Shown here piece after piece: positions 45,616 through 58,281 of a DNA stretch of 64,000 nucleotides. A program made the translations under genes and the position numbers. Origin of the DNA: Gammaproteobacteria bacterium (GTDB lineage Bacteria; Pseudomonadota; Gammaproteobacteria; Arenicellales; Poriferihabitantaceae); assembly GCA_026709505.1 (NCBI GenBank), contig JAPOSW010000128.1, positions 20,261 through 84,260 on the forward strand. Direction: 5' to 3'. The first letter of the stretch is position 1, and each line of letters begins with the position of its first letter. The notes under the pieces were generated by a model. The model did not search any database, was not told the origin of the DNA, and saw only the letters and a list, made by a program, of their open reading frames with translations.

Positions 45616-46596
45616 TCAGTTCAGAATCAAGGCAGGTCGTCTTTCGCCACTCGGCGGATAACTGAAATGTTCGCGATAGCACTTGCTGAAATGATTTGAA
45701 GAATTAAACCCGCAGGACATGGCAATTTCAGATACCAGCATATTGGTCTGCTGCAAGAGATGGCGGGCCTGAATCAGTCTGAGTCGCTTGTAGTATTCAA
45801 TCGGACTGCAGTTGAGGTACTTGCGAAACAGCCGTTCAAGCTGGCGCCTCGAGACGCCGATATGACCTGCGATTTCCTCAAGCTCCAGCAATTCCTCCTT
45901 GTTGGCCTCCATGTAGACCACGGCTTCGGCTAGCTTGGGCTGGCTACCGCCAAGCAAAATCCGCAGCGACGAGGGCTGTCGGTCGTTCTGGTCACGCACT
46001 CTCTCAAGCATGAACTCTTCGGCAACCTCGTTGGCCAAAACGGTTCCGTGATGTCGGGCTATAAGATATATCATCAAGTCCATCGAAGCAATGCCGCCTG
46101 CGCAGGTATAGCGATTGCGGTCGACCTTGAACAGCACAGGACTAACGATCAAGTCGGGAAACTTTTCCATCAGACTCGCCATATTCTCCCAGTGGATGGT
46201 GCATCGATAACCTCTCAGCAGGCCAGCTTCAGCCAAGATGTAGGAACCTGTACACAATGCGCCAATATTGACGTGTTTCTTGGCCTGCATGCGCAACCAG
46301 TCACGAACCGGCTTGCTGACGCAGTCCTCAATCTGGAGTCCACCGCATACAAATACGCCATCGAGCCGACCGCAGCGCTTGAGTTTGGCGACATTGAACT
46401 GAATTCCGCAACTGGAGGTCACGGGATGTTTGCCCTCGCCAAGCAATACCCATTCATAGAGTTCATCGTTTAACAACCGGTTGGCCATGCGCAGTGGGTC
46501 CAGAGCCGCCGCAAAGGGCGTCAGCGAAAACCCGGGAAGGAGCAGGAAACCATAGCGAGTGGTTCGATTACGTGATTCTGGAACCTGCATTGGCAA
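45616..46596 (-). CDS. GlxA-family (DJ-1/PfpI-like domain + AraC HTH) transcriptional regulator, same architecture as GbdR/CdhR/SouR
   Basis: N-terminus YGFLLLPGFSLTPFAAALDPLRMAN...LCTGSYILAEAGLL. C-terminal AraC HTH VSRRQLERLFRKYL..SPIEYY...R...A..LL..T...V.EIA..CGF.S..HFSK.YR. Divergent from the MttB gene. Confidence 0.85.
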   Translation of the reverse strand: MPMQVPESRNRTTRYGFLLLPGFSLTPFAAALDPLRMANRLLNDELYEWVLLGEGKHPVTSSCGIQFNVAKLKRCGRLDGVFVCGGLQIEDCVSKPVRDWLRMQAKKHVNIGALCTGSYILAEAGLLRGYRCTIHWENMASLMEKFPDLIVSPVLFKVDRNRYTCAGGIASMDLMIYLIARHHGTVLANEVAEEFMLERVRDQNDRQPSSLRILLGGSQPKLAEAVVYMEANKEELLELEEIAGHIGVSRRQLERLFRKYLNCSPIEYYKRLRLIQARHLLQQTNMLVSEIAMSCGFNSSNHFSKCYREHFSYPPSGERRPALILN

Positions 46597-46755
46597 ACAT
46601 GTTTAGAGCTTAGGCGGATTATCGCTATACTTCACGCATGACGCAATTCATTCTGAGCAAGTCGTAATAAAACACGAAAAGTTTTCGACATATTTCTATT
46701 ATCCGTTATTTGGACTCAGTTCAGAACCTTGTATTTTCATTCCTTTTCATTCGAC

Positions 46756-48285
46756 ATGCAGAAATCCACAAGAAAACGCAGCGGTCGCCGGAGTCGTCCC
46801 CAAACGCATAATCCCGAGCCCGCTGGCATTGCCTATCTCAATCGTCAGATCCCCGATACGCAGTTGTTGAATGCCGAGGGTCTTGAGCTGATTGAGCATA
46901 ATGCCGACACGATTCTTGAGGAAATCGGCATTGATTTCAGGTATGAGCCGGCAAAAAAACTGTTCAGGGCGGCTGGTGCAGAAATTGATGGTGACCGAAT
47001 CCGTTTTCCGCGAGGGATGTGTCGGGGCATTATTCAGGAGAGTGCACCCCGTGAATTCGAGCAGAAAGCCCGTAATCCAAAACGCAATGTAACGATTGGC
47101 GGCAATTCCACGGTGTTTGCACCGGTATATGGACCGCCATTTGTCAGGGACCTTGATCAAGGCCGGCGCTATGCGACGATTGAGGATTTCCGCAATTTCG
47201 TAAAACTGGCTTACCTGCTGCCCTCGCTCCACCATTCGGGGGGTACGGTTTGCGAGCCCACAGACGTGCCGGTCAACAAGAGGCATTTCGACATGGTTTA
47301 CAGCCATATTAAATACAGCGACAAGCCCTTCATGGGTTCAGTCACCCACCCTGAACGGGCCGAAGACTCGGTCGAGATGTGCAAAATCCTGTTTGGCGCG
47401 GACTATGTTGATCAGAATACGGTATTGGTGAATCTCATCAATGCCAATTCTCCGATGACTTTTGATGAGACCATGCTGGGCGCATCGGAAGTCTACGCAA
47501 GAAACAATCAGGCCAGTATTGTCTCGCCGTTTATCCTGTCGGGTGCCATGTCGCCGGTCACCGTGGCTGGAACCATGGCGCAAATTCTGGCCGAGGCACT
47601 GGCGGGAATCGCATTTACCCAGCTTGTTCGACCGGGATCGCCGGTTATCTTCGGGACCTTTTCAAGCTCGATTTCCATGCAATCCGGGGCACCCACATTC
47701 GGTACGCCTGAACCGGCACTGGTGATTTACGGCTGCGCTGAACTTGCGCGGCGTCTCGGGGTGCCTTTTCGAAGTGGCGGGTCGTTGTGCGGTTCAAAGA
47801 TCACGGATGCACAGGCTGCCTATGAAAGTTCAAGCACCTTGTTGCCGACAATGCTGGCGGGAGTCAATTTTGTCCTGCATGCTGCCGGCTGGTTAGAGGG
47901 CGGTCTTGTTTCAGGTTATGAAAAGTTGATCATGGATGCCGATCAGCTGGGCATGATGGGGGTATTTGCAGGCGGCTATGACCTCACGGAAAACGGCCAG
48001 GCATTGCGAGCGATTCGAGAAGTGGGGCCGGGATCGCATTATCTGGGCTGTGAACATACTCAGGATAATTTCAAGACTGCGTTCTATCGATCTTCAATTG
48101 CCGATAACAACAGTTTTGAGCAGTGGGAGCTTGAAGGCAGTCTGGATGCGACAGCCAGGGCGAATGCGATCTGGAAACGGATGCTGAACGAATACGAGGC
48201 GCCGCCAATAGATCCGGCGATTGATGAGGCATTGCTGGAATTTATCGAAACTCGAAAGAGTTCGTTTCTGGATGCCAATTATTGA
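46756..48285 (+). CDS. MttB-superfamily methyltransferase without pyrrolysine (quaternary-amine:corrinoid methyltransferase candidate)
   Basis: 510 aa uninterrupted ORF. Arg-rich N-terminus, then family-typical blocks (L..E.L..I...A..ILEEIG, NANSPM.FD, GA.SP.T.AG...Q..AE.LAG, LHAAGWLEGGL..S.EK...D). Confidence 0.85.
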   Translation: MQKSTRKRSGRRSRPQTHNPEPAGIAYLNRQIPDTQLLNAEGLELIEHNADTILEEIGIDFRYEPAKKLFRAAGAEIDGDRIRFPRGMCRGIIQESAPREFEQKARNPKRNVTIGGNSTVFAPVYGPPFVRDLDQGRRYATIEDFRNFVKLAYLLPSLHHSGGTVCEPTDVPVNKRHFDMVYSHIKYSDKPFMGSVTHPERAEDSVEMCKILFGADYVDQNTVLVNLINANSPMTFDETMLGASEVYARNNQASIVSPFILSGAMSPVTVAGTMAQILAEALAGIAFTQLVRPGSPVIFGTFSSSISMQSGAPTFGTPEPALVIYGCAELARRLGVPFRSGGSLCGSKITDAQAAYESSSTLLPTMLAGVNFVLHAAGWLEGGLVSGYEKLIMDADQLGMMGVFAGGYDLTENGQALRAIREVGPGSHYLGCEHTQDNFKTAFYRSSIADNNSFEQWELEGSLDATARANAIWKRMLNEYEAPPIDPAIDEALLEFIETRKSSFLDANY

Positions 48286-48484
48286 TCCCCGACATCCGAA
48301 ACAAGGCGTGCATCAATTCAGTCAAGCCTGAGAATATGGGCTTCACAGCTTTCCCATAATCATTTGTCTTGCCGCAACAGCCGAAGAAAAACCAATCGTG
48401 CAGTCACTGGTCTGGCAGCACGGGGAATAAGGGGCGGGAGATCCATATCCGGCAATTATCAGAGAAATTGGCAGACCTTGGATT

Positions 48485-50506
48485 TCAGGGGCGCTTTCTC
48501 CGTCTTCTCCGCCCATCACTTCCTGATTGACCGGTTATCGGCGCATCATCGGCTTGCGGCAATTTGACCTGTTGGGCGAGTTTCTCGAATCTATCTGATT
48601 GATGGGGTATGCCCAGTGCTTCTACAAAATACTCCTGGAATTTATCCTCGACTGCAGTCTCAATTTTCTGAATCTGTTTTACAGTGTGCTCGATTTCCTC
48701 CCTTGCATCGGTATCCAGTAGAGCAATGCTGGCTCCCTTTCCGGCTGCATTGCCTGCCGAAGTGACCTGAGATAATTCGCAGTCGGGAATCATTCCCAGG
48801 ACCATGGCATATTTCACGTCAATATGGGCGCCAAAGGCTCCGGCCAACCGGATGCGATCGACCTGATCTACACCCATCTTGTCCATCAGCAATCTGGCCC
48901 CGGCATACAGAGCCGCCTTGGCTAGCTGTATGGCCCGGACATCGTTTTGCGTGATCAGGATTCTCACCGTATCCCTCTCGAAGAGCACATAGCTCCAGGT
49001 TTTGCCGTCTTGAACAATCCGATCTGACCGCTTTGCCAGTTCACCGTTGATCATTCCGTTCTTCAGGATAATTCCACATAAAAACATCTCGGCGATAACT
49101 TCGATAATGCCTGAGCCGCAAATTCCGGTAATGCCGGTATTGCCGAACTTGTCGAAGAACCCTGCATGATCGGACCAGAGATCACATCCGATCACCTGAA
49201 ACCTTGGTGCAAGCGTCTCGGCATTAATGCGCACCCGTTCGATGGCACCGGGTGCTGCGCGCTGCCCACTGCTGATCTGTGCTCCTTCAAATGCCGGACC
49301 GGTCGGGCTTGATGCAGCCAGCATCCGTGAGCGGTTGCCCAGTACGATCTCGGCATTGGTCCCGACATCCACCAACAGGGTTAATTCGTCCTGCTGGTAA
49401 GGGGCTTCCGACAGGGTTGCTGCCGCAGCATCGGCTCCCACATGTCCTGCGATGCACGGCAATACGTAGGTGCGGGCACCCGGGTGCAGCTGGATGTCAA
49501 TGTCGGATGCCTTGATACTGACCGACCGATCAGTCGCAAGAGCAAATGGGGCACCGCCCAGTTCGATAGGATTAATGCCCAATAGCAGATGATGCATAAT
49601 GGGATTGCCTACGATTGTCATGTCAAGAATATCCCCAGTCTCGATTTTGGCGATTTCGCACAAGTCGGCAATTTGCCCTTGCACGGCCTCGCGAACTGCG
49701 CAGGTCATGTCGACCTCGCCACCGGGATTCATCATCACATAGGAGACACGGCTCATCAGATCCTCGCCAAATCGAATCTGAGGGTTCATGCGGCCAGTTG
49801 AAGCGATCGCCTCACCGCTTATCAGATCGTACAGGTGCGCGGCAATGGTTGTTGATCCAATATCTATCGAAACTCCGTATACGGTACTTTTAAAGCCCGG
49901 CCACAAAGCAATCACCTCCTGTGCTTGATGCACTGCAGCCGTGATCTTCCACTCTCCTTCTCGGAGCAAATGCTGCAGAACACCCAGTAACCCAAAATCA
50001 AACTTGAGATCGCTGAGTCCCCATTCGAATTCGAGCGCATCCAGAATACGCTCGATATCCCCGGAGGGATGGTGCATATCGGGTTCCTGAACCTCGACAT
50101 AATGCAGGCGAACTGCCGGATTGACGGTCATCTCGTGAACATCAAGACGCTTTCTGACAATCTGTCGATGCGCCTGGCTTTCCGGCGGGATATCGATTAC
50201 GGCATCACCCTGAAGCAGGGCCTGACAGCCGAGACGTCGAGTGGGCGAGATATCATCCAGAAAATATGCCTCCTCGCTTGACGTGTGCCCGGAGAGGTTT
50301 TCCGGCCTGGAGTGAATCTGAAACTTCGGGAACTCCCCAACGCTCAAATCGATCTGGCATCGATCACAAATTCCCCGACCGCCGCACACCGTGTCGAGGT
50401 CGACTCCAAGCTGCTGAGCGGCGGCGAGTACAGATTTGCCGCTTTGTATCTCTCCCCGCTTGCCTGATGGCGTGAAGACAACCTTCACGAACTCACGGTC
50501 TGTCAT
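48485..50506 (-). CDS. Reductive activator of corrinoid enzymes (RamA/RACo-like): plant-type 2Fe-2S ferredoxin domain + ASKHA ATPase domain
   Basis: N-terminal CGGRGICDRCQ...C cluster. ASKHA phosphate motifs SIDIGSTTIAAHL and LVDVGTNAEIVLG. 673 aa. Confidence 0.8.
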   Translation of the reverse strand: MTDREFVKVVFTPSGKRGEIQSGKSVLAAAQQLGVDLDTVCGGRGICDRCQIDLSVGEFPKFQIHSRPENLSGHTSSEEAYFLDDISPTRRLGCQALLQGDAVIDIPPESQAHRQIVRKRLDVHEMTVNPAVRLHYVEVQEPDMHHPSGDIERILDALEFEWGLSDLKFDFGLLGVLQHLLREGEWKITAAVHQAQEVIALWPGFKSTVYGVSIDIGSTTIAAHLYDLISGEAIASTGRMNPQIRFGEDLMSRVSYVMMNPGGEVDMTCAVREAVQGQIADLCEIAKIETGDILDMTIVGNPIMHHLLLGINPIELGGAPFALATDRSVSIKASDIDIQLHPGARTYVLPCIAGHVGADAAAATLSEAPYQQDELTLLVDVGTNAEIVLGNRSRMLAASSPTGPAFEGAQISSGQRAAPGAIERVRINAETLAPRFQVIGCDLWSDHAGFFDKFGNTGITGICGSGIIEVIAEMFLCGIILKNGMINGELAKRSDRIVQDGKTWSYVLFERDTVRILITQNDVRAIQLAKAALYAGARLLMDKMGVDQVDRIRLAGAFGAHIDVKYAMVLGMIPDCELSQVTSAGNAAGKGASIALLDTDAREEIEHTVKQIQKIETAVEDKFQEYFVEALGIPHQSDRFEKLAQQVKLPQADDAPITGQSGSDGRRRRRKRP

Positions 50507-50880
50507 GCTTCAGCGTCGAGACTCGGTAGTTCATGATAGTCGCTCATGTCTTCAACGAATATGTTCTGGATAGATTTGACATGAGTGGGGGGATCCAGAG
50601 TTCCTGCCATGATGCTTATCCTGTCACTCCGGTTAAGCTTCCAGAACAGGCTTGACCCGCATTGACTGCAAAAACCCCGTTGTGCGATTTCGGAGGAACG
50701 ATACCAGACGAGGGTTTTATCCTTCATGATTTCCAGTTGGTCCAGCGCACATTGTACCGCTGCCACATGATGCCCTGAGGTTTTTCGACATTGACTGCAG
50801 AAGCAGTTGATGACGCCGCGGATATCCCCGGCTATCCGATAGCTGATTTCACCGCATAGGCAGCTTCCTTTTCGAATCAT
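50503..50880 (-). CDS. GFA-family (glutathione-dependent formaldehyde-activating enzyme / CENP-V fold) zinc protein
   Basis: GSCLCGEISY...CFCSQCRK.SG...FCSQCGSSLFW Cys pattern. Stop overlaps the activator start (ATGA). Confidence 0.8.
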   Translation of the reverse strand: MIRKGSCLCGEISYRIAGDIRGVINCFCSQCRKTSGHHVAAVQCALDQLEIMKDKTLVWYRSSEIAQRGFCSQCGSSLFWKLNRSDRISIMAGTLDPPTHVKSIQNIFVEDMSDYHELPSLDAEA

Positions 50881-50901
50881 TGGACCGTCGGCCGAACCAC
50901 T

Positions 50902-51822
50902 TTACCCTACTGCTGCCCGGCGTCGTCGCCGCCCTGAACGTCCGGCCCGGGCTTCGGCGAACATGTCATGGACTACTGCCGGCTGACGGTATTTCCTGAG
51001 CCACCTTGCACAGTTTTGATCATGGCCCATAACCACGTTGGCTGCCATCACGCCCTGCATGACTTCTTCGTGAAGAGGGTTGGTAATCGCAGAGGTCATG
51101 CCTGCTCCGATGGCCATGCTGATGAAATGTCCATCCATGCCCTTGCGATTGGGAATGCCAAAGCTGAAATTGGATGCACCGCAGGTGGTGTTGACCTTGA
51201 GTTCCTCCCGCAAGCGTTTCACCAGATGCAAGACCTGGCGGCCTGCGCTGTTGACTGCCCCGACCGGCATCACCAGTGGATCGACCACGATATCGCTGTG
51301 ATGGATTCCATAATCGGCTGCCCGTTCGACGATTTTCCTGGCGACATCAAAGCGCTCGTCAGGGTTTTCGGAGATTCCTGCCTCATCGTTGGAGATGGCG
51401 ACCACGGCACAGCTGTACTTTGCGACCAGCGGCAGCACCGCCTCCAGACGTTCTTCCTCACCGGTGATTGAATTCAGCAAGGGTTTGCCCTGATAGACCT
51501 CAAGCCCTGCTTCAAGAGCTCCGACGATGGATGAGTCAATCGACAGCGGAACATCGGTTACTGACTGCACGAGCTGAATGCATTCGGCAAGGATTTTCGG
51601 TTCGTCGGCAAGCGGGATACCGGCATTGACGTCCAGCATGCCTGCACCAGCCTGCACCTGGGCTATTGCATCCTGTTCGACACGTGAATAGTCACCTTGT
51701 TTCATCTCCTCGGCAAGAATTTTCCTCCCGGTCGGATTAATGCGCTCGCCAATAATCATGAATGGCTGTTCAAAGCCAATGCGAACTTCGCGACTGGCTG
51801 AACTGATAACGGTATCGGTCAT
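50902..51822 (-). CDS. Pterin-binding methyltransferase (methyltetrahydrofolate:corrinoid methyltransferase, MetH pterin-domain/MeTr-like)
   Basis: IIGERINPTGRK, LDVNAG and a TIM-barrel length of 306 aa. Arg-rich C-terminal tail. Confidence 0.8.
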   Translation of the reverse strand: MTDTVISSASREVRIGFEQPFMIIGERINPTGRKILAEEMKQGDYSRVEQDAIAQVQAGAGMLDVNAGIPLADEPKILAECIQLVQSVTDVPLSIDSSIVGALEAGLEVYQGKPLLNSITGEEERLEAVLPLVAKYSCAVVAISNDEAGISENPDERFDVARKIVERAADYGIHHSDIVVDPLVMPVGAVNSAGRQVLHLVKRLREELKVNTTCGASNFSFGIPNRKGMDGHFISMAIGAGMTSAITNPLHEEVMQGVMAANVVMGHDQNCARWLRKYRQPAVVHDMFAEARAGRSGRRRRRAAVG

Positions 51823-51890
51823 AACAAGGCTCCGGATTTGTCGGTGTAGATCAGTAAAATTTAATTATCGGGTCATGCTGCCCAATCCTC

Positions 51891-52205
51891 TTACTGGCTT
51901 TTTTTCAATGGTTCTTCATGCCCACATCGTTGGACCAGGCCTTTCAGGCGGTCCGTATGGTATTCCTGTTCAATGCGGGATGCGGCCGCTTCAACTTCTG
52001 ACTTCAAGTCATCACTACAGGGGACTGATACGCGGCGCCACTCTTGAAGATAGGCATCTGTCCCTGAAAGACCTGCACGCATCGCTGCAGCATCGATGGC
52101 GATGGCGAATCTATTGCTCAATTCGAGTTTTTCTGCCTGTCGACGCTGTTTCGCCATGACCTGAGCGGGAATGTCTCTCCAGAATACGGTTACAAGATCG
52201 GTCAT
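51891..52205 (-). CDS. Small conserved protein that accompanies corrinoid methyltransferase clusters ('virulence factor'-annotated family, by recollection)
   Basis: 104 aa. N-terminal VTVFWRDIPAQVMAK...AIDAAAMRAGLSGTDAYLQEWRR matches what I recall for this family. Function unknown. Confidence 0.5.
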   Translation of the reverse strand: MTDLVTVFWRDIPAQVMAKQRRQAEKLELSNRFAIAIDAAAMRAGLSGTDAYLQEWRRVSVPCSDDLKSEVEAAASRIEQEYHTDRLKGLVQRCGHEEPLKKSQ

Positions 52206-52217
52206 GGTCGTCGGTCC

Positions 52218-52865
52218 TTATGCTTGCGAATCGGCTACACGGCCAAAATCGTTGACGACAACCTTGAGTGAGTCGTTCAGCCCGGTGTCGCCCGTGAATT
52301 CCTGTTCGAACGCAAGCCCGAGAAACTCGGCTGCCTGGCGGGCCTTGTGTTCGGTTTTCGAATTTTGTTTCTGGGCGAGATAGATCAGTTTGCTGTAGTG
52401 TCCGAAGTACTGGTCCTTGAGCTCGGGATATCGATCGATTCCGAGTCCACTGACAATCAACCGATCGAAATTGCTGGCTAGATAATCAGTCAGGTAAAAG
52501 GTGCCGATTTCATATTCATGCAGGGCATTGAATTTTTCGGCCCCTGCGAATAGTTCATAGCAATGGGCACCGGGCAGTCGCTCGATGCCCTCTTGCTCAA
52601 TCACCTTGTCGAGCAGTCCTCCGGTTCCACAATCTGCATATCCGATGAAGATTTTGGAGAAATGATCCCGGTTCTCGCGGATTTTCTTCCGAACAGCCTC
52701 GGGGATTTTCTCCGGATAATTGTGCAACGCTGCTGGCAGGCACTGGAATTCGATATGGTTCCAGTTATTCAAGTCGCGCACTCGCACGAGTTCATGAGCA
52801 AGGGCGCCACAGGCAATCACCAGCAGCTTCCCGTTTGCACAATCTGAATGCTGTTCAGGCTGCAC
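52218..52865 (-). CDS. DUF1638-family protein
   Basis: LLVIACGALAHEL...GYADCGTGG...CYE resembles DUF1638. Start uncertain: GTG 52865 gives an 11-nt overlap with the corrinoid gene, while ATGs at 52913, 52928 and 52958 overlap more. Confidence 0.6.
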   Translation of the reverse strand: MQPEQHSDCANGKLLVIACGALAHELVRVRDLNNWNHIEFQCLPAALHNYPEKIPEAVRKKIRENRDHFSKIFIGYADCGTGGLLDKVIEQEGIERLPGAHCYELFAGAEKFNALHEYEIGTFYLTDYLASNFDRLIVSGLGIDRYPELKDQYFGHYSKLIYLAQKQNSKTEHKARQAAEFLGLAFEQEFTGDTGLNDSLKVVVNDFGRVADSQA

Positions 52866-53550
52866 GCTTCTCAGCGATTTTTGCTTGTGCCGTCTCAACG
52901 GCAACCGCAGCATCCCGACAATAGGCATCGGCACCGATAGCCTTGCCAAACTCTTCATTCAGGGGGGCCCCGCCGACCAGCACGATATAGTCTTCGCGAA
53001 TCCCCTGTTCGACCAGGGTATCGATCACGACTTTCATGTAGGGCATGGTGGTGGTCAACAGTGCAGACATGCCCAGTATATCGGGCCGGTGCTGTTCAAG
53101 AGCCTCAAGATAGTTCTCGACCGGATTGTCAATGCCGAGATCAATGACTTCGAAGCCTGCGCCTTCCATCATCATGGACACCAGATTCTTGCCGATGTCA
53201 TGGATATCCCCTTTGACGGTGCCGATCACCATCTTGCCAATCGGTTCTGCGCCGGTTTCAGCCAGCAAGGGACGGAGGATTTTCATGCCGCCTTTCATGG
53301 CATTGGCAGACATCAGGACTTCGGGAACGAACAGTATGCCGTCCCGGAAATCGATACCGACAATGCGCATGCCTTCAACAAGCGCCTCATCAAGCACCCT
53401 GGTTGCGGCCCAGCCGCGATCGAGCAGTATCTGTGTGCCTTCGATAATCTCGTCACGCAGACCATCATAGAGATCATCATGCATCTGCTCTACCAGTTCT
53501 TCATCTGACAGGGCAGACAGGTCAATATCATCGTATTCTTCTTCGCTCAT
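52855..53550 (-). CDS. Corrinoid (cobalamin-binding) protein, MtgC/MetH B12-domain-like
   Basis: B12 cap helix region, then the Rossmann B12 domain with DxHxxG (VKGDIHDIGKNLV) and SALLTTT. Strongly acidic N-terminus. Confidence 0.85.
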   Translation of the reverse strand: MSEEEYDDIDLSALSDEELVEQMHDDLYDGLRDEIIEGTQILLDRGWAATRVLDEALVEGMRIVGIDFRDGILFVPEVLMSANAMKGGMKILRPLLAETGAEPIGKMVIGTVKGDIHDIGKNLVSMMMEGAGFEVIDLGIDNPVENYLEALEQHRPDILGMSALLTTTMPYMKVVIDTLVEQGIREDYIVLVGGAPLNEEFGKAIGADAYCRDAAVAVETAQAKIAEKRAA

Positions 53551-54226
53551 CGTGGCTACCCATACGAAAAAATAACCGAAAACCAAGACCACTGCGGAGG
53601 TATTCGCAAGCCCGAGGCATTTTTTGGAATATACAAATCCGCTATCATTTCGATATGTCCATTTGCGACAATAAAAACGGATTTTACGACTCTATATTGA
53701 AGATTCCTTGAATTTTCCGAACTATTTTGAAAAGATTATCATTAATTTGAAAATACGAAACCGGCGTGGACCTGTTTTCGGCAATTTCATCGAAGGTCAT
53801 GCTGCAGCGCACACGGGATTCAAGTTATCCAATGACTGCTTCGAGAGGGTCACGGAATCATACAGGGTATCGAGGGTGCTTTCGGGTTTTCCATTTACGG
53901 ATTGGGGCATACCGCCAATATTGCAAGGTAAAAAGCCAAACAGACCGGAGGCGATACCATGCAGCTAACACCAGCGGAAATAACCCTGTTGATCAACCAG
54001 CACAAAATTCTGAAAATTCTTGATCCTGAGAGGCATCGCCATGCCAGACCCCGACAATGAGGCCTGAAGTCGCCGGAGAATGTTTTCCCTCCCGGACGCT
54101 GGGAAGCATCAGGCAGTGCTTCGCCAGCGGTGGCGTGTTTCTGAGTCATGCCGCAGAACAATATGAAAAAATGGGTGATGGGCTGTTGATGCTTGACCCT
54201 GTCGTGAACAATAGGCCGGGGATTTA

Positions 54227-54526
54227 TGGTGCGGGCGGAGGGAGTCGAACCCTCACTGCCATCTGGCAAACGGATTTTCGTACCAGCTACGATTTGCACC
54301 GCCCTCATGATTCGAGGTTTGTGGTCTGGACTATCCCTTCACCCTAGCTGTTTGCCTTAGGTGCTGCCCGTCTAGTCTCTACACCTTCCCGTTCGAAATC
54401 GGGCTTGGCTCGGGATTGCCATATTCCAGGTTTTTCCGAGTTTGAGCAGTTCTACATTTCCGGTTTCCCGAAAAGCACTCAAATTATAATTAAGTCCGTT
54501 GCGTCTACCGATTCCGCCACGCCCGC
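54227..54526 (-). tRNA. tRNA-Leu(UAA) gene interrupted by a group I intron. Exons 54526-54492 and 54278-54227; CCA encoded.
   Basis: The joined exons give GCGGGCG-UG-GCGGAAUCGGUAGACGC-A-ACGGA-CUUAAAA-UCCGU-UUGCCAGAUGGCAGU-GAGGG-UUCGACU-CCCUC-CGCCCGC-ACCA. This has a 7-bp acceptor stem, a 5-bp anticodon stem, a long variable arm and a canonical T loop. Confidence 0.9.
54279..54491 (-). ncRNA. Group I intron (IC3-like), 213 nt, no ORF, inserted between U34 and A35 of the anticodon
   Basis: Core strings CUCAAACUCGGAAAAACCU, GGCAAUCCCGAGCCAAGCC, GAAGGUGUAGAGACUAGACGGGCAGCACCUAAGGCAAAC and GGGAUAGUCCAGAC. Terminal G (54279) immediately before the 3' exon. 5' exon ends in U. Confidence 0.85.
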
Positions 54527-54545
54527 AAGATTTTGATGAAAGTGT

Positions 54546-54573
54546 AGTTTATGATAAGAGAGATTCATGTCAA
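54546..54573 (-). promoter_or_regulatory. Candidate sigma70 promoter of the tRNA-Leu gene
   Basis: Minus strand: TTGACA - 16 nt - TAAACT, ending 19 nt upstream of tRNA position +1. Confidence 0.4.
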
Positions 54574-54765
54574 TAGCTTGTACCGGCAGAAACTCTGAAG
54601 CAGGGCAATGCGCAATGCAGGAAGTAAATGAACGGATAAGTTGAACCTGCGCTTCCATGGTGTAAGCGGACATTCCATATGCAAAACGGTATCAGCCTGT
54701 TGCGGATGCTCAAACGTCAAATCCACTCGGAGCTATCAGATGATCCGAATCCAGGCGTGAAATCT

Positions 54766-55572
54766 CTAGCGTTCATGTAACTGGCTGTTCGCTTCTTTCG
54801 GCGAATTCAACTCCTTTATCCGCTGAACGGCCTTTCCTCGAATGTTTTCCTGATAAACCTCCTGTGCCGGAAGTTCCGCAACACGCAGCAGGAGGCCTTC
54901 TGCCTTTTTTCGATATTTCCTCTTGCCCAAAGCCAGATATCCATTCGCAGACCCGTAATGAGTATCAATGCCATCGGGATCCAATTCCAAAGCTCGCTCA
55001 ATATGAAAAAAAGCATCCTTCCTGTTCGCGCCAAAAAGAACCCCCGCCAGAAACGACCCCATAACTTCAATGAGACCCGCATGCCAGCTGCCCAAAGCAA
55101 GATGGGCATCTGCAGAATTGTCGTCCAGCGACAAGGCAATTTCGAGATGCTCGCGAATCTGCTCGGCATACTTCTCATTCATCGCCTTGATTCGCCCAAT
55201 GCCCTGTGCATATTTGCCCATCGCTCTTACCAGCTCGAAATGTCCCCGCAAACTTTTTGGATCAATCTCAACCGCTCTCTCTGCCAAGTCCATCGCATGG
55301 CGAAATAATCCGCTCTGCTCCTCCTTTTCGGCATAGTAAAGTGCATGTGTGTTGAGTGAATTTGCCGCAAGAGCAAAACCGCTTGCGCCGCCAATCTTTT
55401 CAGCAATTTGAGCGGCTTCCAGATAACGACCTTCAGCATAGGCCGTTCCTGCTTCTTCCAGAGATGCCGCTCTGGCACCTCCAGAAATGAATGCCAAGCA
55501 AGCAAGCAGAACCCAGTAGCGGCTACACCTGTCGATGTTGCGCCTGTCCGTGAATTTTGCTGAACAAGTCAT
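54766..55572 (-). CDS. Secreted helical-repeat (TPR/Sel1-like) protein, function unknown
   Basis: Signal peptide (YWVLLACLAFISGGARAA) and repeated A..Y..G.Y..A-type helical units. Confidence 0.5.
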   Translation of the reverse strand: MTCSAKFTDRRNIDRCSRYWVLLACLAFISGGARAASLEEAGTAYAEGRYLEAAQIAEKIGGASGFALAANSLNTHALYYAEKEEQSGLFRHAMDLAERAVEIDPKSLRGHFELVRAMGKYAQGIGRIKAMNEKYAEQIREHLEIALSLDDNSADAHLALGSWHAGLIEVMGSFLAGVLFGANRKDAFFHIERALELDPDGIDTHYGSANGYLALGKRKYRKKAEGLLLRVAELPAQEVYQENIRGKAVQRIKELNSPKEANSQLHER

Positions 55573-55609
55573 CGCTAGAACCAGAATTGGATGCCATGAT
55601 CAGCCAATT

Positions 55610-56116
55610 TCATTGAACGCCCAGTCCTGCCAGAAACTCGGGGTCTTTGTATTCAATCAGCCTCTGGGAACTGTCTTCAAAAGATTTCCACATTTCCAGA
55701 AAACCAATCCCGGCAAGCGGATGAATATCTTCGGGATACAAGTCAGACAAGGGCTTAAGAACAAATGCATACTTGGTGATCTCGTCTCGGGGTATATTGA
55801 ATTCAGAATCACAAAGATCACCATAAAGCAGCAAATCAATATCCAGTACCCGGTCATCAAACGTTTTCGGCCCCTTGACCCGGCCTAGATTTTTCTCGAC
55901 ATCCTGCATGTGGGTCCGGATTTGTTCGACCGGCGATGATGAGTGCAGTCCAACAACCAGATTCAAGAAAGCCGCACCCTGAAATCCCACCGACTCCGTC
56001 TCGTATACTGGCGAAATCTCAAGCTGCCCGTATTCGTCTCGAATAGCGCCCACCGCACTGGTGATATTCTCTTCTCGATTGATATTGCTGCCAAGCCCAA
56101 GCACCACACGAATCAT
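55610..56116 (-). CDS. folK: 2-amino-4-hydroxy-6-hydroxymethyldihydropteridine diphosphokinase
   Basis: VVLGLGSNI...SPVYETESVG...LDIDLLLYG. Confidence 0.85.
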   Translation of the reverse strand: MIRVVLGLGSNINREENITSAVGAIRDEYGQLEISPVYETESVGFQGAAFLNLVVGLHSSSPVEQIRTHMQDVEKNLGRVKGPKTFDDRVLDIDLLLYGDLCDSEFNIPRDEITKYAFVLKPLSDLYPEDIHPLAGIGFLEMWKSFEDSSQRLIEYKDPEFLAGLGVQ

Positions 56117-56493
56117 GTCCTGCTGCCCCGCTCAATAATTATTCCGACGTCCCGCGCACCCGAAACAGCCCCAAACTTGTTGAGCCTGACCCGGCACCAT
56201 GTCGCTGGAAACTCATTCAGTATAATCCTGGCAATCTCTTCTGCCAGCTTCTCGAGCAAATTGAATTTTGACTCCGCCACAAAACTCGCCACTCTTTTTG
56301 CCACATCCTTGTAGCTCAAGGTATCTTTCAGACAATCGGATTCTGCCGACTTGATGGTTTCAAACCCCATATCCAGGTCAATCACCAGACTCTGAACAAT
56401 GCGCTGCTCCCATTCCCAGCAACCGATCACGCAATCGACTTTTAAACCATGTAGGTAGATAATATCCATAACCGAAACAACAGCTGCATTCAC
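56113..56493 (-). CDS. folB: Dihydroneopterin aldolase
   Basis: MDIIYLHGLKVDCVIGCWEWEQ...Q.LVIDLDM...D.L.DTLSY. ATGA overlap with folK. Confidence 0.85.
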   Translation of the reverse strand: MNAAVVSVMDIIYLHGLKVDCVIGCWEWEQRIVQSLVIDLDMGFETIKSAESDCLKDTLSYKDVAKRVASFVAESKFNLLEKLAEEIARIILNEFPATWCRVRLNKFGAVSGARDVGIIIERGSRT

Positions 56494-56508
56494 CTCTCTT
56501 TCAAACCA

Positions 56509-57099
56509 TTGGATTATACACTCCCCATACTTGCCTATCTGATCGGCTCGATCTCCTGTTCAGTCCTGATTTGCAGGCTGGCCGGACTGCCGGACCCCCG
56601 GCAAACCGGCTCCAATAACCCTGGCGCCACCAATGTACTCCGAATCGGTGGCAAGCAGGTTGCCGCCCTGGCCTTGATTGGCGATATCCTCAAGGGCTGT
56701 TTACCCGTCATGCTTGCCAGCCTGATCACCAGTGACACTCTGATCTTGAGCCTGGCGGGCCTGTCTGCCTTTCTAGGACATCTGTACCCGATCTTCTTTC
56801 AATTCAAGGGAGGCAAAGGTGTAGCGACTGCTGCTGGCGTCTATCTGGCTCTGGCGTGGCCTGTCGCACTGGCCTTGATTGTCATCTGGCTGATCACCGC
56901 ATTGATGTTCAAGTATTCATCGGCGGCATCACTGGCCGCAGCAATTTCAGCACCAGTACTGATTGAAATTCATCTGCATGATATATTCCACACCCTGTCC
57001 GGCACGCTGATCGCCGCGCTGGTCTTTTGGCGACACCGCGCAAACCTGCTGCGCCTAAAAAAGGGGACGGAGAGTAAAATCAGGCTGCAGCGACCCTGA
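56509..57099 (+). CDS. plsY: Glycerol-3-phosphate acyltransferase (acyl-phosphate dependent)
   Basis: YLIGSI....I.......DPR..GS.NPGATNVLR, FKGGKGVAT. TTG start in the ORF track. Confidence 0.9.
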   Translation: MDYTLPILAYLIGSISCSVLICRLAGLPDPRQTGSNNPGATNVLRIGGKQVAALALIGDILKGCLPVMLASLITSDTLILSLAGLSAFLGHLYPIFFQFKGGKGVATAAGVYLALAWPVALALIVIWLITALMFKYSSAASLAAAISAPVLIEIHLHDIFHTLSGTLIAALVFWRHRANLLRLKKGTESKIRLQRP

Positions 57100-57225
57100 T
57101 ACTGTTCGATTGAGATTGAAATCCCTTCACTTGATTCCGCTATTTCTGCCTTCAAGGCGGGGTAAACCTGGATACAATTTCACCGACTCATTCAAGACAT
57201 CACTTCTTTCAGGATTACAGAAGCC

Positions 57226-58281
57226 TTGACCATACTGCCTGAACTTCTCAAGGAACGCGGAGTCCTGCTCGCTGACGGGGCGACTGGATCGAACCTGTTC
57301 AAAATGGGTCTGCAGTCCGGGGATGCCCCAGAATTGTGGAATGACTTGTTTCCGGATCGTATTGCGGCCAACTACCGGAGCTTCATTGAGGCGGGTTCGG
57401 ATATTATTCTGACCAATACATTCGGCGGTAACCGGTTTCGCCTTGGACTTCACGATTCGTCAGATCGAGTTCATGAGCTCAATGTAAAGGCCGCCAGCAT
57501 CGCGAAGGCTGAGGTCAATAAAGCCTCAAAGCGAATTATCGTCGCCGGTTCAATCGGGCCCACCGGCGAAATTCTGGAACCACTCGGTTCACTCAGTATC
57601 GAAAGCGCGGCGGAAGTATTCGCTGAACAGGCCCTGGCACTCGAAGAGGGAGGCGTCGACTTGCTCTGGATCGAAACCATGTCTTCGCTCGAAGAGGCCA
57701 CAGCAGCACTGCAGGGAGTCGCCGCATGCAGCCTGCCATCGGTCCTCACCTTCAGTGTGGATACCAATGGCCGAACCATGATGGGGCTGACCCCTGCCGA
57801 CATTATCAGGTTCGCATCCGAAACCCTGCATAGACCTCAGGCCGTCGGTGCTAATTGCGGGATTGGCGCCGCCGATCTTGTCGCCAGCCTGATCAACATG
57901 CATCATGCAGCCAAGGACCTTTCCATCCCGATAATCGTCATCGCCAAGGCAAACTGCGGCGTCCCGGAATACATTGACGGCGAGATTGTCTACAGCGGGA
58001 CCGAGGAAGTCATGTCGGACTACGCCTGTATTGCCATGGATGCCGGAGCCAGAATCATCGGCGGCTGTTGCGGTACTACACCCAGCCATATCCGCGCAAT
58101 GCGCAAGGCTATTGACAGGCACCAGACAGGCGAGTTGCCCGATATCGACAAAATCGAGGCCAGCTTGGGTACAATCACTGCAGGAGCTCGCTCACAGATG
58201 CTCGGAGACCTGAGCATCGCCGGCGGTGCAAAACGCCCGCCACGAGAACGCAAATCAAGACGCTCTCGTCGTGATGCATGA
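57226..58281 (+). CDS. Homocysteine S-methyltransferase family protein (MetH Hcy-domain / BHMT-like, zinc-dependent)
   Basis: VLLADGATGSNLF, TNTFGGN, the Zn ligands ANCG and IGGCCGTTPSHI. Arg-rich C-terminal tail. TTG start in the ORF track. Confidence 0.8.
   Translation: MTILPELLKERGVLLADGATGSNLFKMGLQSGDAPELWNDLFPDRIAANYRSFIEAGSDIILTNTFGGNRFRLGLHDSSDRVHELNVKAASIAKAEVNKASKRIIVAGSIGPTGEILEPLGSLSIESAAEVFAEQALALEEGGVDLLWIETMSSLEEATAALQGVAACSLPSVLTFSVDTNGRTMMGLTPADIIRFASETLHRPQAVGANCGIGAADLVASLINMHHAAKDLSIPIIVIAKANCGVPEYIDGEIVYSGTEEVMSDYACIAMDAGARIIGGCCGTTPSHIRAMRKAIDRHQTGELPDIDKIEASLGTITAGARSQMLGDLSIAGGAKRPPRERKSRRSRRDA

What the first reader, a model, noticed from the sequence alone, without database searches (positions are those of the whole stretch)
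46756..58281. Four methyl-transfer partners carry Arg-rich termini while the corrinoid protein has a highly acidic N-terminus
Seen directly in the translations:
- MttB-family enzyme N-terminus: MQKSTRKRSGRRSRPQ.
- Activator C-terminus: ...GQSGSDGRRRRRKRP*.
- Pterin-binding methyltransferase C-terminus: ...ARAGRSGRRRRRAAVG*.
- Stand-alone homocysteine methyltransferase C-terminus, about 4 kb away: ...AKRPPRERKSRRSRRDA*.
- Corrinoid protein N-terminus: MSEEEYDDIDLSALSDEELVEQMHDDLYDG.

No other protein in the window ends in such a poly-Arg tail.

Inference:
- The tails may be a shared electrostatic docking tag.
- Such a tag would let each enzyme that must visit the cobalamin find the acidic cap region of one shuttle protein. 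The visiting enzymes are the substrate methyltransferase, the THF methyltransferase, the homocysteine methyltransferase and the reductive activator.
- If so, the tails also functionally link the remote homocysteine methyltransferase to the module.
- I am not aware of a described function for these tails.
Basis: partly seen in the sequence, partly recalled or inferred. Interest (0 to 1): 0.6.

Follow-up and report, generated by a model that had tools for sequence, protein, structure and literature searches.

The report
Arginine tails on B12-carrier partner enzymes
In a known split vitamin-B12 methyl-transfer system, every enzyme that must visit the small B12 carrier protein has a floppy arginine-rich end and the carrier has a matching acidic tip. 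The pairing is conserved, appears undescribed, and probably tethers the separate proteins, but no binding has been shown.

Summary
The cluster is an MtgBCDE/RamA-type split methionine synthase and quaternary-amine demethylase (Price 2018; Mausz 2025).

**In this genome**
- The three partners with C-terminal tails rank first for C-terminal arginine among about 2977 crude ORF calls.
- All eight MttB paralogs begin with an Arg-rich stretch.
- Two B12-independent homocysteine methyltransferase paralogs have no tail.

**In related genomes**
- About 130 related loci from at least six bacterial classes keep both the acidic tip and the tails.
- About 80 anaerobe-type loci, solved homologues and two natural fusion proteins lack both.
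- One GC-rich genome holds a tailed and an untailed system side by side, so base composition is not the cause.
- One MttB subfamily carries the tail at its C-terminus instead.

**Structure**
- AlphaFold2 predicts that the carrier tip (residues 1-6, pLDDT below 50) and the pterin methyltransferase tail (residues 284-306) are disordered.

**Reading**
- Electrostatic docking or tethering is the best reading (about 0.6).
- It is unproven. Charge correlations are weak, and 8 of 14 Chloroflexota homocysteine methyltransferases lack the tail.
- No paper I could search mentions the tails.
- This scan has noted the same pairing in at least seven other genomes.

The parts
45616..46596 (-). AraC-family regulator with a DJ-1/PfpI (GATase1-like) N-domain, divergent from the MttB gene. 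The GbdR-like architecture is my inference.
   Evidence: Pfam HTH_18, HTH_AraC and DJ-1_PfpI
46756..48285 (+). Pyrrolysine-free MttB-family substrate:corrinoid methyltransferase (MtgB-like)
   Evidence: PF06253, 761 bits. Closest solved structure is 4YYC, E = 3e-233.
46756..46803 (+). Arg-rich N-terminal extension of MttB (MQKSTRKRSGRRSRPQ)
   Evidence: Absent from DhMtgB 2QNE/9YCE, which begin at query residues 27-32. Present in all 8 paralogs of the genome and in all MttB hits of the canonical related loci.
48485..50506 (-). RACo/RamA-like ATP-dependent reductive activase
   Evidence: Pfam RACo_linker, Raco_middle and RACo_C_ter. Matches 3ZYY, E = 8e-85.
48488..48514 (-). Poly-Arg C-terminal tail of RACo (GRRRRRKRP). 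It ends a 37-residue extension beyond the last residue aligned to 3ZYY.
   Evidence: The codons mix CGG, AGA and CGC, so this is not a DNA repeat. Arg-rich ends are seen in every complete orthologue of the first set and in 29/31 of the second set.
50902..51822 (-). Methyl-THF:corrinoid methyltransferase (MtgD-like, pterin-binding)
   Evidence: PF00809. NF005719, 364 bits.
50905..50973 (-). Disordered C-terminal extension of the pterin methyltransferase, ending GRSGRRRRRAAVG
   Evidence: AF2 pLDDT below 50 for residues 284-306. Homologue 4O0Q ends at query residue 281.
51891..52205 (-). Small PF13769 ('Virulence_fact') protein, a conserved cluster member of unknown role with no charged tail
   Evidence: Found in 62 of 80 related loci.
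52218..52958 (-). DUF1638 protein. Its start is uncertain and overlaps the 3' end of the MtgC gene. No conserved charged terminus.
   Evidence: PF07796. Orthologue termini.
52855..53550 (-). MtgC-type corrinoid carrier (cap plus Rossmann B12-binding domains), net charge -26, pI 4.25. It is the only such protein in the genome.
   Evidence: PF02607 and PF02310. Single copy. 76-91% identical to homologues in several phyla. Charge.
53491..53550 (-). Acidic N-terminal extension of MtgC (MSEEEYDDIDLSALSDEELV). Residues 1-10 are a floppy tip of net charge -6. Residues 11-20 are folded.
   Evidence: AF2 pLDDT is 53 for residues 1-10 and 97 for residues 11-20. Absent from 1Y80, 4JGI, 3EZX and 7XCN and from 96 anaerobe-type corrinoid proteins.
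57226..58281 (+). Stand-alone homocysteine-binding methyltransferase (MtgE-like; the family NCBI names 'BHMT')
   Evidence: PF02574. NF005718, 448 bits.
58120..58278 (+). 53-residue C-terminal extension of MtgE, ending KRPPRERKSRRSRRDA
   Evidence: The Hcy domain aligned to MetH structures ends near residue 298. Arg tails are seen in 11/11 and 7/7 canonical orthologues.

Best explanation
The cluster is an MtgBCDE/RamA-type split cobalamin methyltransferase system.
- One small, very acidic carrier (MtgC) holds the B12.
- It is visited in turn by substrate methyltransferases (8 MttB paralogs here), the methyl-THF methyltransferase (MtgD), the homocysteine methyltransferase (MtgE) and the reductive activase (RamA/RACo).

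Each of these clients has a disordered extension ending in a cluster of 5-8 arginines. MtgC has a clade-specific acidic N-extension: a floppy tip of about 10 residues followed by an acidic first cap helix.

I infer that the tails act as interchangeable electrostatic tethers.
- They overcome the repulsion between the net-negative enzyme bodies and the net-negative carrier.
- They raise the encounter rate and hold the carrier near the client while its cap opens.
- This does non-covalently what the inter-domain linkers do in single-chain MetH. In MetH the C-terminus of the folate domain is joined to the N-terminus of the cap, and those are the two ends that carry opposite charges in MtgD and MtgC.
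- Because all clients use the same kind of tag, they would compete for the one carrier.

Shown here: presence, specificity, conservation, co-occurrence and predicted disorder of the tails. Inferred: physical binding and its kinetic effect.
For: 1. **Specificity.** The three C-tailed clients rank top of the genome. All 8 MttB paralogs are N-tailed. Two tail-less PF02574 paralogs, one MmuM-type, serve as internal controls. In 80 related 20-kb loci, 82 of 1010 crude genes have a poly-Arg C-terminus. Of these, 73 fall in the client families: 72 are RACo, pterin methyltransferase or homocysteine methyltransferase, and one is a divergent MttB homologue. The other 9 are spurious antisense ORFs.
2. 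**Conservation of charge, not sequence.** This holds in about 130 loci from Gamma-, Beta- and Alphaproteobacteria, Acidimicrobiia, Thermoleophilia and Chloroflexota.
3. **Co-occurrence.** In 79 anaerobe-type loci there is no acidic extension on 96 corrinoid proteins and no N-extension on 95 MttB homologues. Those loci show 0.6 and 1.3 Arg in the last 20 residues of RACo and pterin methyltransferase, against 6.1 and 6.3 in the MtgC-type loci. Solved homologues also lack all the extensions.
4. **Within-genome contrast.** Genome G002 has a tailed MtgC system (L075) and a second corrinoid system (L241). In L241 the corrinoid protein, pterin methyltransferase and RACo have neither the acidic extension nor tails.
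5. **Independent acquisitions.** Tails occur on four unrelated folds, and at the opposite terminus in one MttB subfamily.
6. **Natural fusions.** A corrinoid plus pterin methyltransferase fusion (P0071) and a Hcy plus corrinoid fusion (P0133) lack tails.
7. **Charges.** MtgC is -26. Client bodies without their tails are -12 to -30.
8. **Predicted disorder.** AF2 predicts disorder for MtgC residues 1-6 and MtgD residues 284-306.
9. **Precedent.** The N-terminal extension of MtaC docks into MtaB (PMC9842639).
Against: - There is no direct evidence of binding. No complex could be modelled with the tools available.
- The charge of the MtgC extension correlates only weakly with tail charge (Spearman -0.16 to -0.37, nominal p 0.04-0.13, no phylogenetic correction).
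- In the Chloroflexota sister clade, 8 of 14 complete homocysteine methyltransferases have no tail although the neighbouring RACo and pterin methyltransferase do.
- DUF1638, genetically required in Phaeobacter, has no tail.
- The contrast between MtgC-type and other systems may trace to a single evolutionary origin, so the co-occurrence is few independent events on the carrier side.
- Poly-Arg also binds RNA, polyphosphate and anionic lipids.
Confidence: 0.6

Rival explanations
1. The Arg tails bind a common cellular polyanion other than the MtgC tip: anionic membrane lipids, RNA or the nucleoid, or polyphosphate. This would co-localise all the enzymes of the pathway, for example near betaine or B12 transporters or in a condensate. 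The acidic MtgC would then be recruited only indirectly.
For: - The other poly-Arg termini in this genome belong to nucleic-acid-binding proteins: DNA methylases, Cas9 and ribosomal protein L2.
- Arg is strongly preferred over Lys, as is typical for phosphate binding.
- The charge correlation with the MtgC tip is weak.
Against: - The tails occur only in systems whose carrier has gained an acidic extension. They are absent from a second corrinoid system in the same cell.
- The tails have no hydrophobic or amphipathic element for membrane insertion.
- Other enzymes of the pathway in the neighbourhoods, and DUF1638, are untailed.
Confidence: 0.17
2. The tails only offset the strongly negative surface charge of the clients. 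They would tune solubility or pI, or lower general repulsion from MtgC, without any defined docking site. The acidic MtgC extension would have a separate role, such as stabilising the cap over the cobalamin in aerobic cells.
For: - Client bodies are net -12 to -30.
- MtgC residues 11-30 are predicted to be a folded part of the cap with very high confidence.
- The clade is typical of aerobes (PMC12478193).
Against: - A concentrated terminal cluster on a flexible linker is a poor way to shift bulk charge.
- The tails add only about +4 to +7.
- Relocation of the tail from the N- to the C-terminus in one MttB subfamily, and its loss in covalent fusions, point to a tether.
Confidence: 0.15
3. The tails are neutral by-products: composition drift at unconstrained termini, or DNA- or RNA-level signals at gene ends.
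For: - Many related genomes are GC-rich, where Arg codons are common.
- Tail sequences are poorly conserved in detail.
Against: - This genome is 50% GC.
- The Arg codons are mixed.
- The tails persist across several phyla and are specific to the client families.
- A GC-rich genome has both tailed and untailed paralogous systems.
Confidence: 0.03

Closest known systems
MtgBCDE / split methionine synthase with RamA-like activase and DUF1638 (Phaeobacter inhibens, Price et al. 2018, PMC5764234; Ruegeria pomeroyi, Mausz et al. 2025, PMC12478193)
   Same: - Same gene set: MttB-family, MtgC, MtgD, MtgE, RamA-like, DUF1638.
- MtgC is about 80% identical to roseobacter homologues.
- There is a single carrier and multiple MttB paralogs.
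- The genome has no MetE and no MetH activation domain.
   Different: - The host is an Arenicellales/Spongiihabitans-like gammaproteobacterium.
- A GFA-domain gene is inserted in the cluster.
- The papers say nothing about arginine tails or the acidic tip. That feature is what is new here.
Single-chain cobalamin-dependent methionine synthase MetH (Hcy-Fol-Cap-Cob-Act)
   Same: - Homologous Hcy, Fol, Cap and Cob modules.
- The carrier must visit several active sites in turn.
   Different: - In MetH the modules are joined by covalent linkers.
- Here they are separate proteins, and the ends that correspond to the Fol-to-Cap junction carry opposite charges.
- Reactivation is by an ATP-dependent RACo-type activase rather than the SAM-dependent Act domain.
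Anaerobic three-component corrinoid methyltransferases (D. hafniense MtgABC, Eubacterium limosum MttB-family systems, methanogen MttBC and MtaBC)
   Same: - Same protein families and the same shuttle logic.
- MtaC uses an N-terminal extension to dock on MtaB (PMC9842639).
   Different: No acidic extension on the carrier and no Arg tails on MttB, pterin methyltransferase or RACo homologues.
Hub proteins recognised through charged elements. Examples are the acidic C-terminal tail of bacterial SSB, helix II of acyl carrier protein, and the ribosomal stalk L7/L12. These come from my own knowledge and were not tested here.
   Same: One small acidic hub serves many unrelated clients. Recognition depends largely on charge, through a flexible or exposed element.
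   Different: - In those systems the clients carry basic pockets or patches on their folded surfaces.
- Here each client carries a disordered poly-Arg appendage, so both sides would be tails (a 'fuzzy' contact).
- No binding data exist.

Membership tests
MtgBCDE/RamA split methionine synthase and glycine-betaine methyltransferase | Stand-alone corrinoid protein with cap (PF02607) and B12-binding (PF02310) domains, belonging to the MtgC clade of aerobes | tested here: met
   - Pfam domains.
- 76-91% identity to 80 loci, including Tritonibacter, Epibacterium and Roseovarius.
- Scores below the cut-off of the anaerobe MtgC models NF047996 and NF047995.
MtgBCDE/RamA split methionine synthase and glycine-betaine methyltransferase | Separate pterin-binding methyltransferase (MtgD) and separate homocysteine-binding methyltransferase (MtgE) | tested here: met
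   PF00809 and NF005719; PF02574 and NF005718 at 448 bits against a cut-off of 338.
MtgBCDE/RamA split methionine synthase and glycine-betaine methyltransferase | Pyrrolysine-free MttB-family (PF06253) substrate methyltransferase(s) | tested here: met
   PF06253 at 761 bits, with an uninterrupted ORF. The genome has 8 paralogs. Substrate not determined.
MtgBCDE/RamA split methionine synthase and glycine-betaine methyltransferase | RamA/RACo-type activase and DUF1638 in place of the MetH activation domain | tested here: met
   RACo domains and PF07796. No PF02965 and no PF01717 in the genome, which is 94% complete.
MtgBCDE/RamA split methionine synthase and glycine-betaine methyltransferase | Carrier required for both methionine synthesis and betaine demethylation | not testable with these tools
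   Shown genetically only in R. pomeroyi and P. inhibens (PMC12478193, PMC5764234).
Electrostatic tail-mediated hub-client docking (functional class, not a sequence family) | Charged terminal segments that are disordered and conserved in composition rather than sequence | tested here: met
   AF2 pLDDT below 50 for MtgC residues 1-6 and MtgD residues 284-306. Orthologue comparisons.
Electrostatic tail-mediated hub-client docking (functional class, not a sequence family) | Opposite charges co-occur on hub and clients and are jointly absent in related systems | tested here: met
   Exception: tail-less MtgE in 8 of 14 Chloroflexota loci.
Electrostatic tail-mediated hub-client docking (functional class, not a sequence family) | Quantitative matching of charge between hub and client tails across lineages | tested here: inconclusive
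   Spearman rho -0.16 to -0.37, nominal p 0.04-0.13, not corrected for phylogeny.
Electrostatic tail-mediated hub-client docking (functional class, not a sequence family) | Direct, salt-sensitive binding of the tail to the hub | not testable with these tools
   No multimer prediction or experiment was available.

The most novel reading that the evidence does not exclude
The poly-Arg tail and the acidic MtgC tip form a portable, position-independent 'client tag / hub tag' pair. It evolved to replace covalent domain linkers when a B12 methyltransferase was split into free subunits.

If so:
- It sets up a fuzzy, competitive time-share of one carrier among ten or more enzymes.
- It could serve to predict new MtgC clients from sequence alone.
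- It could serve to engineer synthetic corrinoid methyl-transfer cascades.
Probability: 0.4. Interest if true: 0.75.

Novelty: new variant of a known kind. Interest (0 to 1): 0.6.

Why it matters
The MtgBCDE system is a major route of glycine-betaine demethylation. In many marine and soil bacteria it is the only methionine synthase (PMC12478193). How one carrier is shared among many separate enzymes is not known.

A conserved charge-complementary tag would give:
- a concrete, easily testable mechanism for partner recognition;
- a sequence criterion that separates true MtgE and MtgD clients from B12-independent paralogs, including genes now annotated as 'BHMT';
- a natural example of disordered tails substituting for the covalent linkers of a multidomain enzyme.

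Tried and rejected
- **Other tailed client families.** A genome-wide scan of N- and C-termini found only DNA methylases, Cas9, ribosomal protein L2, PPK and ABC proteins. In 80 related loci, every remaining tailed 'gene' was a spurious antisense ORF.
- **DUF1638 and PF13769 as tailed clients or acidic receptors.** Neither has a conserved charged terminus, and both are near neutral.
- **Tat signal for the MttB N-terminus.** Rejected: no hydrophobic region follows the arginines.
- **Quantitative charge co-variation.** It is weak and not corrected for phylogeny, so it is not used as support.
- **Intermediate carrier P0040.** This search gave only two loci. One fell in the Chloroflexota clade and one was unrelated.
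- **The genome search with a locus as centre.** I redid it through handles.
- **Complex modelling.** The tools fold single chains only, so no complex was modelled.
- **Literature.** Six look-ups found no mention of the tails.
Full report
**1. What is there**

The stretch 45616-58281 encodes the following:
- an AraC/DJ-1-type regulator;
- a pyrrolysine-free MttB-family methyltransferase (46756-48285, +);
- a RACo/RamA-type activase (48485-50506, -);
- a small GFA-domain protein;
- a pterin-binding methyltransferase (50902-51822, -);
- a PF13769 protein;
- a DUF1638 protein;
- a corrinoid protein with cap and B12-binding domains (52855-53550, -);
- 3.7 kb further on, a stand-alone homocysteine-binding methyltransferase (57226-58281, +).

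This gene set is known. It is the split methionine synthase of Phaeobacter inhibens, which has three pieces plus a RamA-like protein and DUF1638 (PMC5764234). It is also the MtgBCDE system of Ruegeria pomeroyi. [quoted passage not shown]

The window's genome has:
- one carrier, one activase and one pterin methyltransferase;
- eight MttB paralogs;
- no MetE and no MetH activation domain, at 94% completeness.

The split enzyme is therefore probably its only methionine synthase. NCBIfam places the homocysteine methyltransferase in NF005718, above the cut-off.

**2. Is the pattern more than chance?**

I made a crude gene call of the whole 3.5-Mb genome (2977 ORFs, 50% GC).
- The homocysteine and pterin methyltransferases rank first and second for Arg in the last 20 residues. 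RACo ties for next place with ORFs that are short and look spurious.
- With a stricter score (Arg in a window of 8 within the last 15 residues), RACo and the pterin methyltransferase are alone at the top. The homocysteine methyltransferase shares the next level with a DNA-methylase-like protein, an ABC permease and one short ORF.
- All eight MttB paralogs begin with an Arg-rich stretch, for example MSRRTGGRAARHALRS, MARRSRRQTGSPSRG and MTAVVKRRNRRGRKK.
- Two further PF02574 paralogs end directly after the catalytic domain. One is an MmuM-type, cobalamin-independent homocysteine methyltransferase. This is an internal control.
- Arg is preferred over Lys 68:10, against 1.5:1 genome-wide.
- The Arg codons of the RACo tail are mixed.

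**3. Conservation**

The carrier is extraordinarily conserved. It is 76-91% identical in 80 loci from Gamma-, Beta- and Alphaproteobacteria, Acidimicrobiia, Thermoleophilia and Chloroflexota.

All 80 carriers keep an N-extension with consensus M-(D/E)n-D(I/L)(D/I)L..L.D.EL(V/T)(E/Q)Q(M/V)HDDLY. Over the 63 loci with a clear start codon, its mean length is 19 residues and its mean net charge is -7.8.

In that first set, the ends are Arg-rich in:
- every complete RACo;
- every complete pterin methyltransferase;
- every complete homocysteine methyltransferase;
- the start of every MttB homologue.

The mean is 6.1-6.3 Arg in the last 20 residues.

A second, non-overlapping set of 52 canonical loci gave RACo 29/31, pterin methyltransferase 31/32, homocysteine methyltransferase 7/7 and MttB 33/33.

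Within the 80 neighbourhoods, 82 of 1010 crude genes have a poly-Arg C-terminus. Seventy-three fall in the client families: 72 are RACo, pterin methyltransferase or homocysteine methyltransferase, and one is a divergent MttB homologue. The other nine are antisense artefacts of GC-rich DNA.

**4. Co-occurrence and controls**

*Solved homologues from anaerobes lack every extension.*
- DhMtgB (2QNE, 9YCE) starts at query residue 27-32.
- Corrinoid proteins 1Y80, 4JGI, 3EZX and 7XCN start at query residue 21-27.
- RACo 3ZYY ends at query residue 636 of 673.
- The MeTr-like 4O0Q ends at 281 of 306.
- The Hcy domain ends near residue 298 of 351.

*Anaerobe-type loci.* In 79 loci retrieved with DhMtgB (Bacillota, Desulfobacterales, Methanosarcinales):
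- 96 corrinoid proteins have no acidic extension;
- 95 MttB homologues start at MLPK(F/Y)N/DVLT;
- 14 RACo and 7 pterin methyltransferases end within 3-19 residues of the domain, with 0.6 and 1.3 Arg in the last 20.

*Natural fusions.* Two proteins from the representative search have neither feature. One joins the corrinoid domain to the pterin methyltransferase (P0071). The other joins the Hcy domain to the corrinoid domain (P0133).

*A contrast inside one genome.* The Thermoleophilia genome that holds L075 has a canonical system with tip and tails. It also encodes a second corrinoid system (L241). In L241:
- the carrier starts MTNEEILQQIYDETL;
- the pterin methyltransferase ends ...WIAAHRRALAATA;
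- the RACo ends ...FIEQLAFPAVP.

So the tails follow the type of carrier. They do not follow the organism, its lifestyle or its GC content.

**5. Variation that informs the mechanism**

A Chloroflexota sister clade has a carrier about 61% identical.
- It keeps the hydrophobic motif of the extension, with fewer acidic residues.
- It keeps basic tails on RACo and the pterin methyltransferase.
- 8 of 14 complete homocysteine methyltransferases there have no tail. This is evidence against a strict requirement.

In the same loci, and in one gammaproteobacterial locus, a divergent MttB subfamily has no N-extension. It ends instead in ...PQRRRRRRQRVLSN or similar. So the tag is independent of position and was acquired more than once. 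Counting four unrelated folds plus this relocation gives at least five separate acquisitions on the client side.

**6. Physical plausibility**

- MtgC is net -26 (pI 4.25). Without their tails the client bodies are -12 to -30, so the bodies should repel one another.
- For MtgC, AlphaFold2 predicts pLDDT below 50 for residues 1-6 and a mean of 53 for residues 1-10.
- Residues 11-20 average 97, with a short helix at 11-13 and the first cap helix at 16-28.
- The acidic element is therefore a floppy tip followed by a folded acidic helix.
- For the pterin methyltransferase, residues 284-306 are below pLDDT 50.
- In single-chain MetH the folate domain is followed directly by the cap (alignments). 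So the C-terminus of MtgD and the N-terminus of MtgC correspond to the two ends of that linker. This is my inference from the known domain order.
- There is a precedent for a carrier N-extension used in docking: the N-terminal domain of MtaC fits a groove of MtaB (PMC9842639).

**7. What is not shown**

- No tool here could model or measure a complex.
- Tip charge and tail charge correlate only weakly, and the test ignores phylogeny.
- DUF1638 and PF13769 carry no charged terminus.
- Poly-Arg can also bind RNA, polyphosphate or anionic lipids. The other poly-Arg termini of this genome are on nucleic-acid enzymes.
- On the carrier side, the acidic extension may have arisen only once.

**8. Comparison with what is known, and novelty**

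The gene cluster is a new member of the known MtgBCDE/RamA system. The charge-complementary termini are not mentioned in the two founding papers, in a 2025 preprint on the system, or in any paper found by four full-text searches.

This scan has noted the same pairing before, in at least seven other genomes. Each follow-up read 'observation confirmed, reading partly supported'. My tests were run independently and agree.

Points I did not see in those short notes:
- the within-genome contrast;
- the tail-less fusions;
- the relocated MttB tail;
- the tail-less MtgE of Chloroflexota.

**9. Verdict**

This is a real, conserved and specific feature of a known system. Its most likely role is an electrostatic tether between the clients and the B12 carrier (about 0.6). 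That role remains unproven.

Noticed in passing
window 45616-46596 (-): An AraC-family regulator with a DJ-1/PfpI (GATase1-like) N-domain lies divergent from the MttB gene. From memory, this is the architecture of the betaine-responsive regulator GbdR, which hints at a betaine-like substrate.
   Followed up: no
window 50503-50880 (-): A GFA-domain (glutathione-dependent formaldehyde-activating-like) gene sits between the pterin methyltransferase and RACo and overlaps the RACo start by 4 nt. Only 5 of 80 related loci have a homologue nearby.
   Followed up: partly
window 51891-52205 (-): A small PF13769 ('Virulence_fact') protein is a conserved member of the cluster (62 of 80 loci). It also occurs in the untailed second system of genome G002 (L241, near 13.5 kb). 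Function unknown.
   Followed up: partly
genome contigs C49, C128, C4, C130, C91 (outside the window): Seven further MttB paralogs exist, all with Arg-rich N-termini, against a single corrinoid carrier. This implies many methylated substrates feeding one carrier.
   Followed up: partly
genome contig C15:248-3634 (outside the window): A 1128-aa Cas9-like protein. It surfaced because its arginine-rich bridge helix scored in the N-terminal Arg scan.
   Followed up: no
L160, L164, L165, L168 (Chloroflexota) and L010: A divergent MttB subfamily has no N-extension but carries a C-terminal poly-Arg tail.
   Followed up: partly
P0071, P0133, P0038, P0096 (representative library): Natural fusions of the corrinoid domain with a pterin methyltransferase, a Hcy domain or URO-D-like methyltransferases. 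The two I inspected at their termini (P0071, P0133) lack charged tails.
   Followed up: partly
window 55610-57099: The folate-biosynthesis genes folK-like (55610-56116) and folB-like (56113-56493), plus a plsY-like gene, lie between the corrinoid module and the homocysteine methyltransferase. I assigned them by eye from the translations.
   Followed up: no
window 52855-52958: The longest DUF1638 ORF overlaps the 3' end of the MtgC gene by about 100 nt. Orthologues start much closer to the conserved LLVIACGA motif, so the true start is probably downstream.
   Followed up: partly
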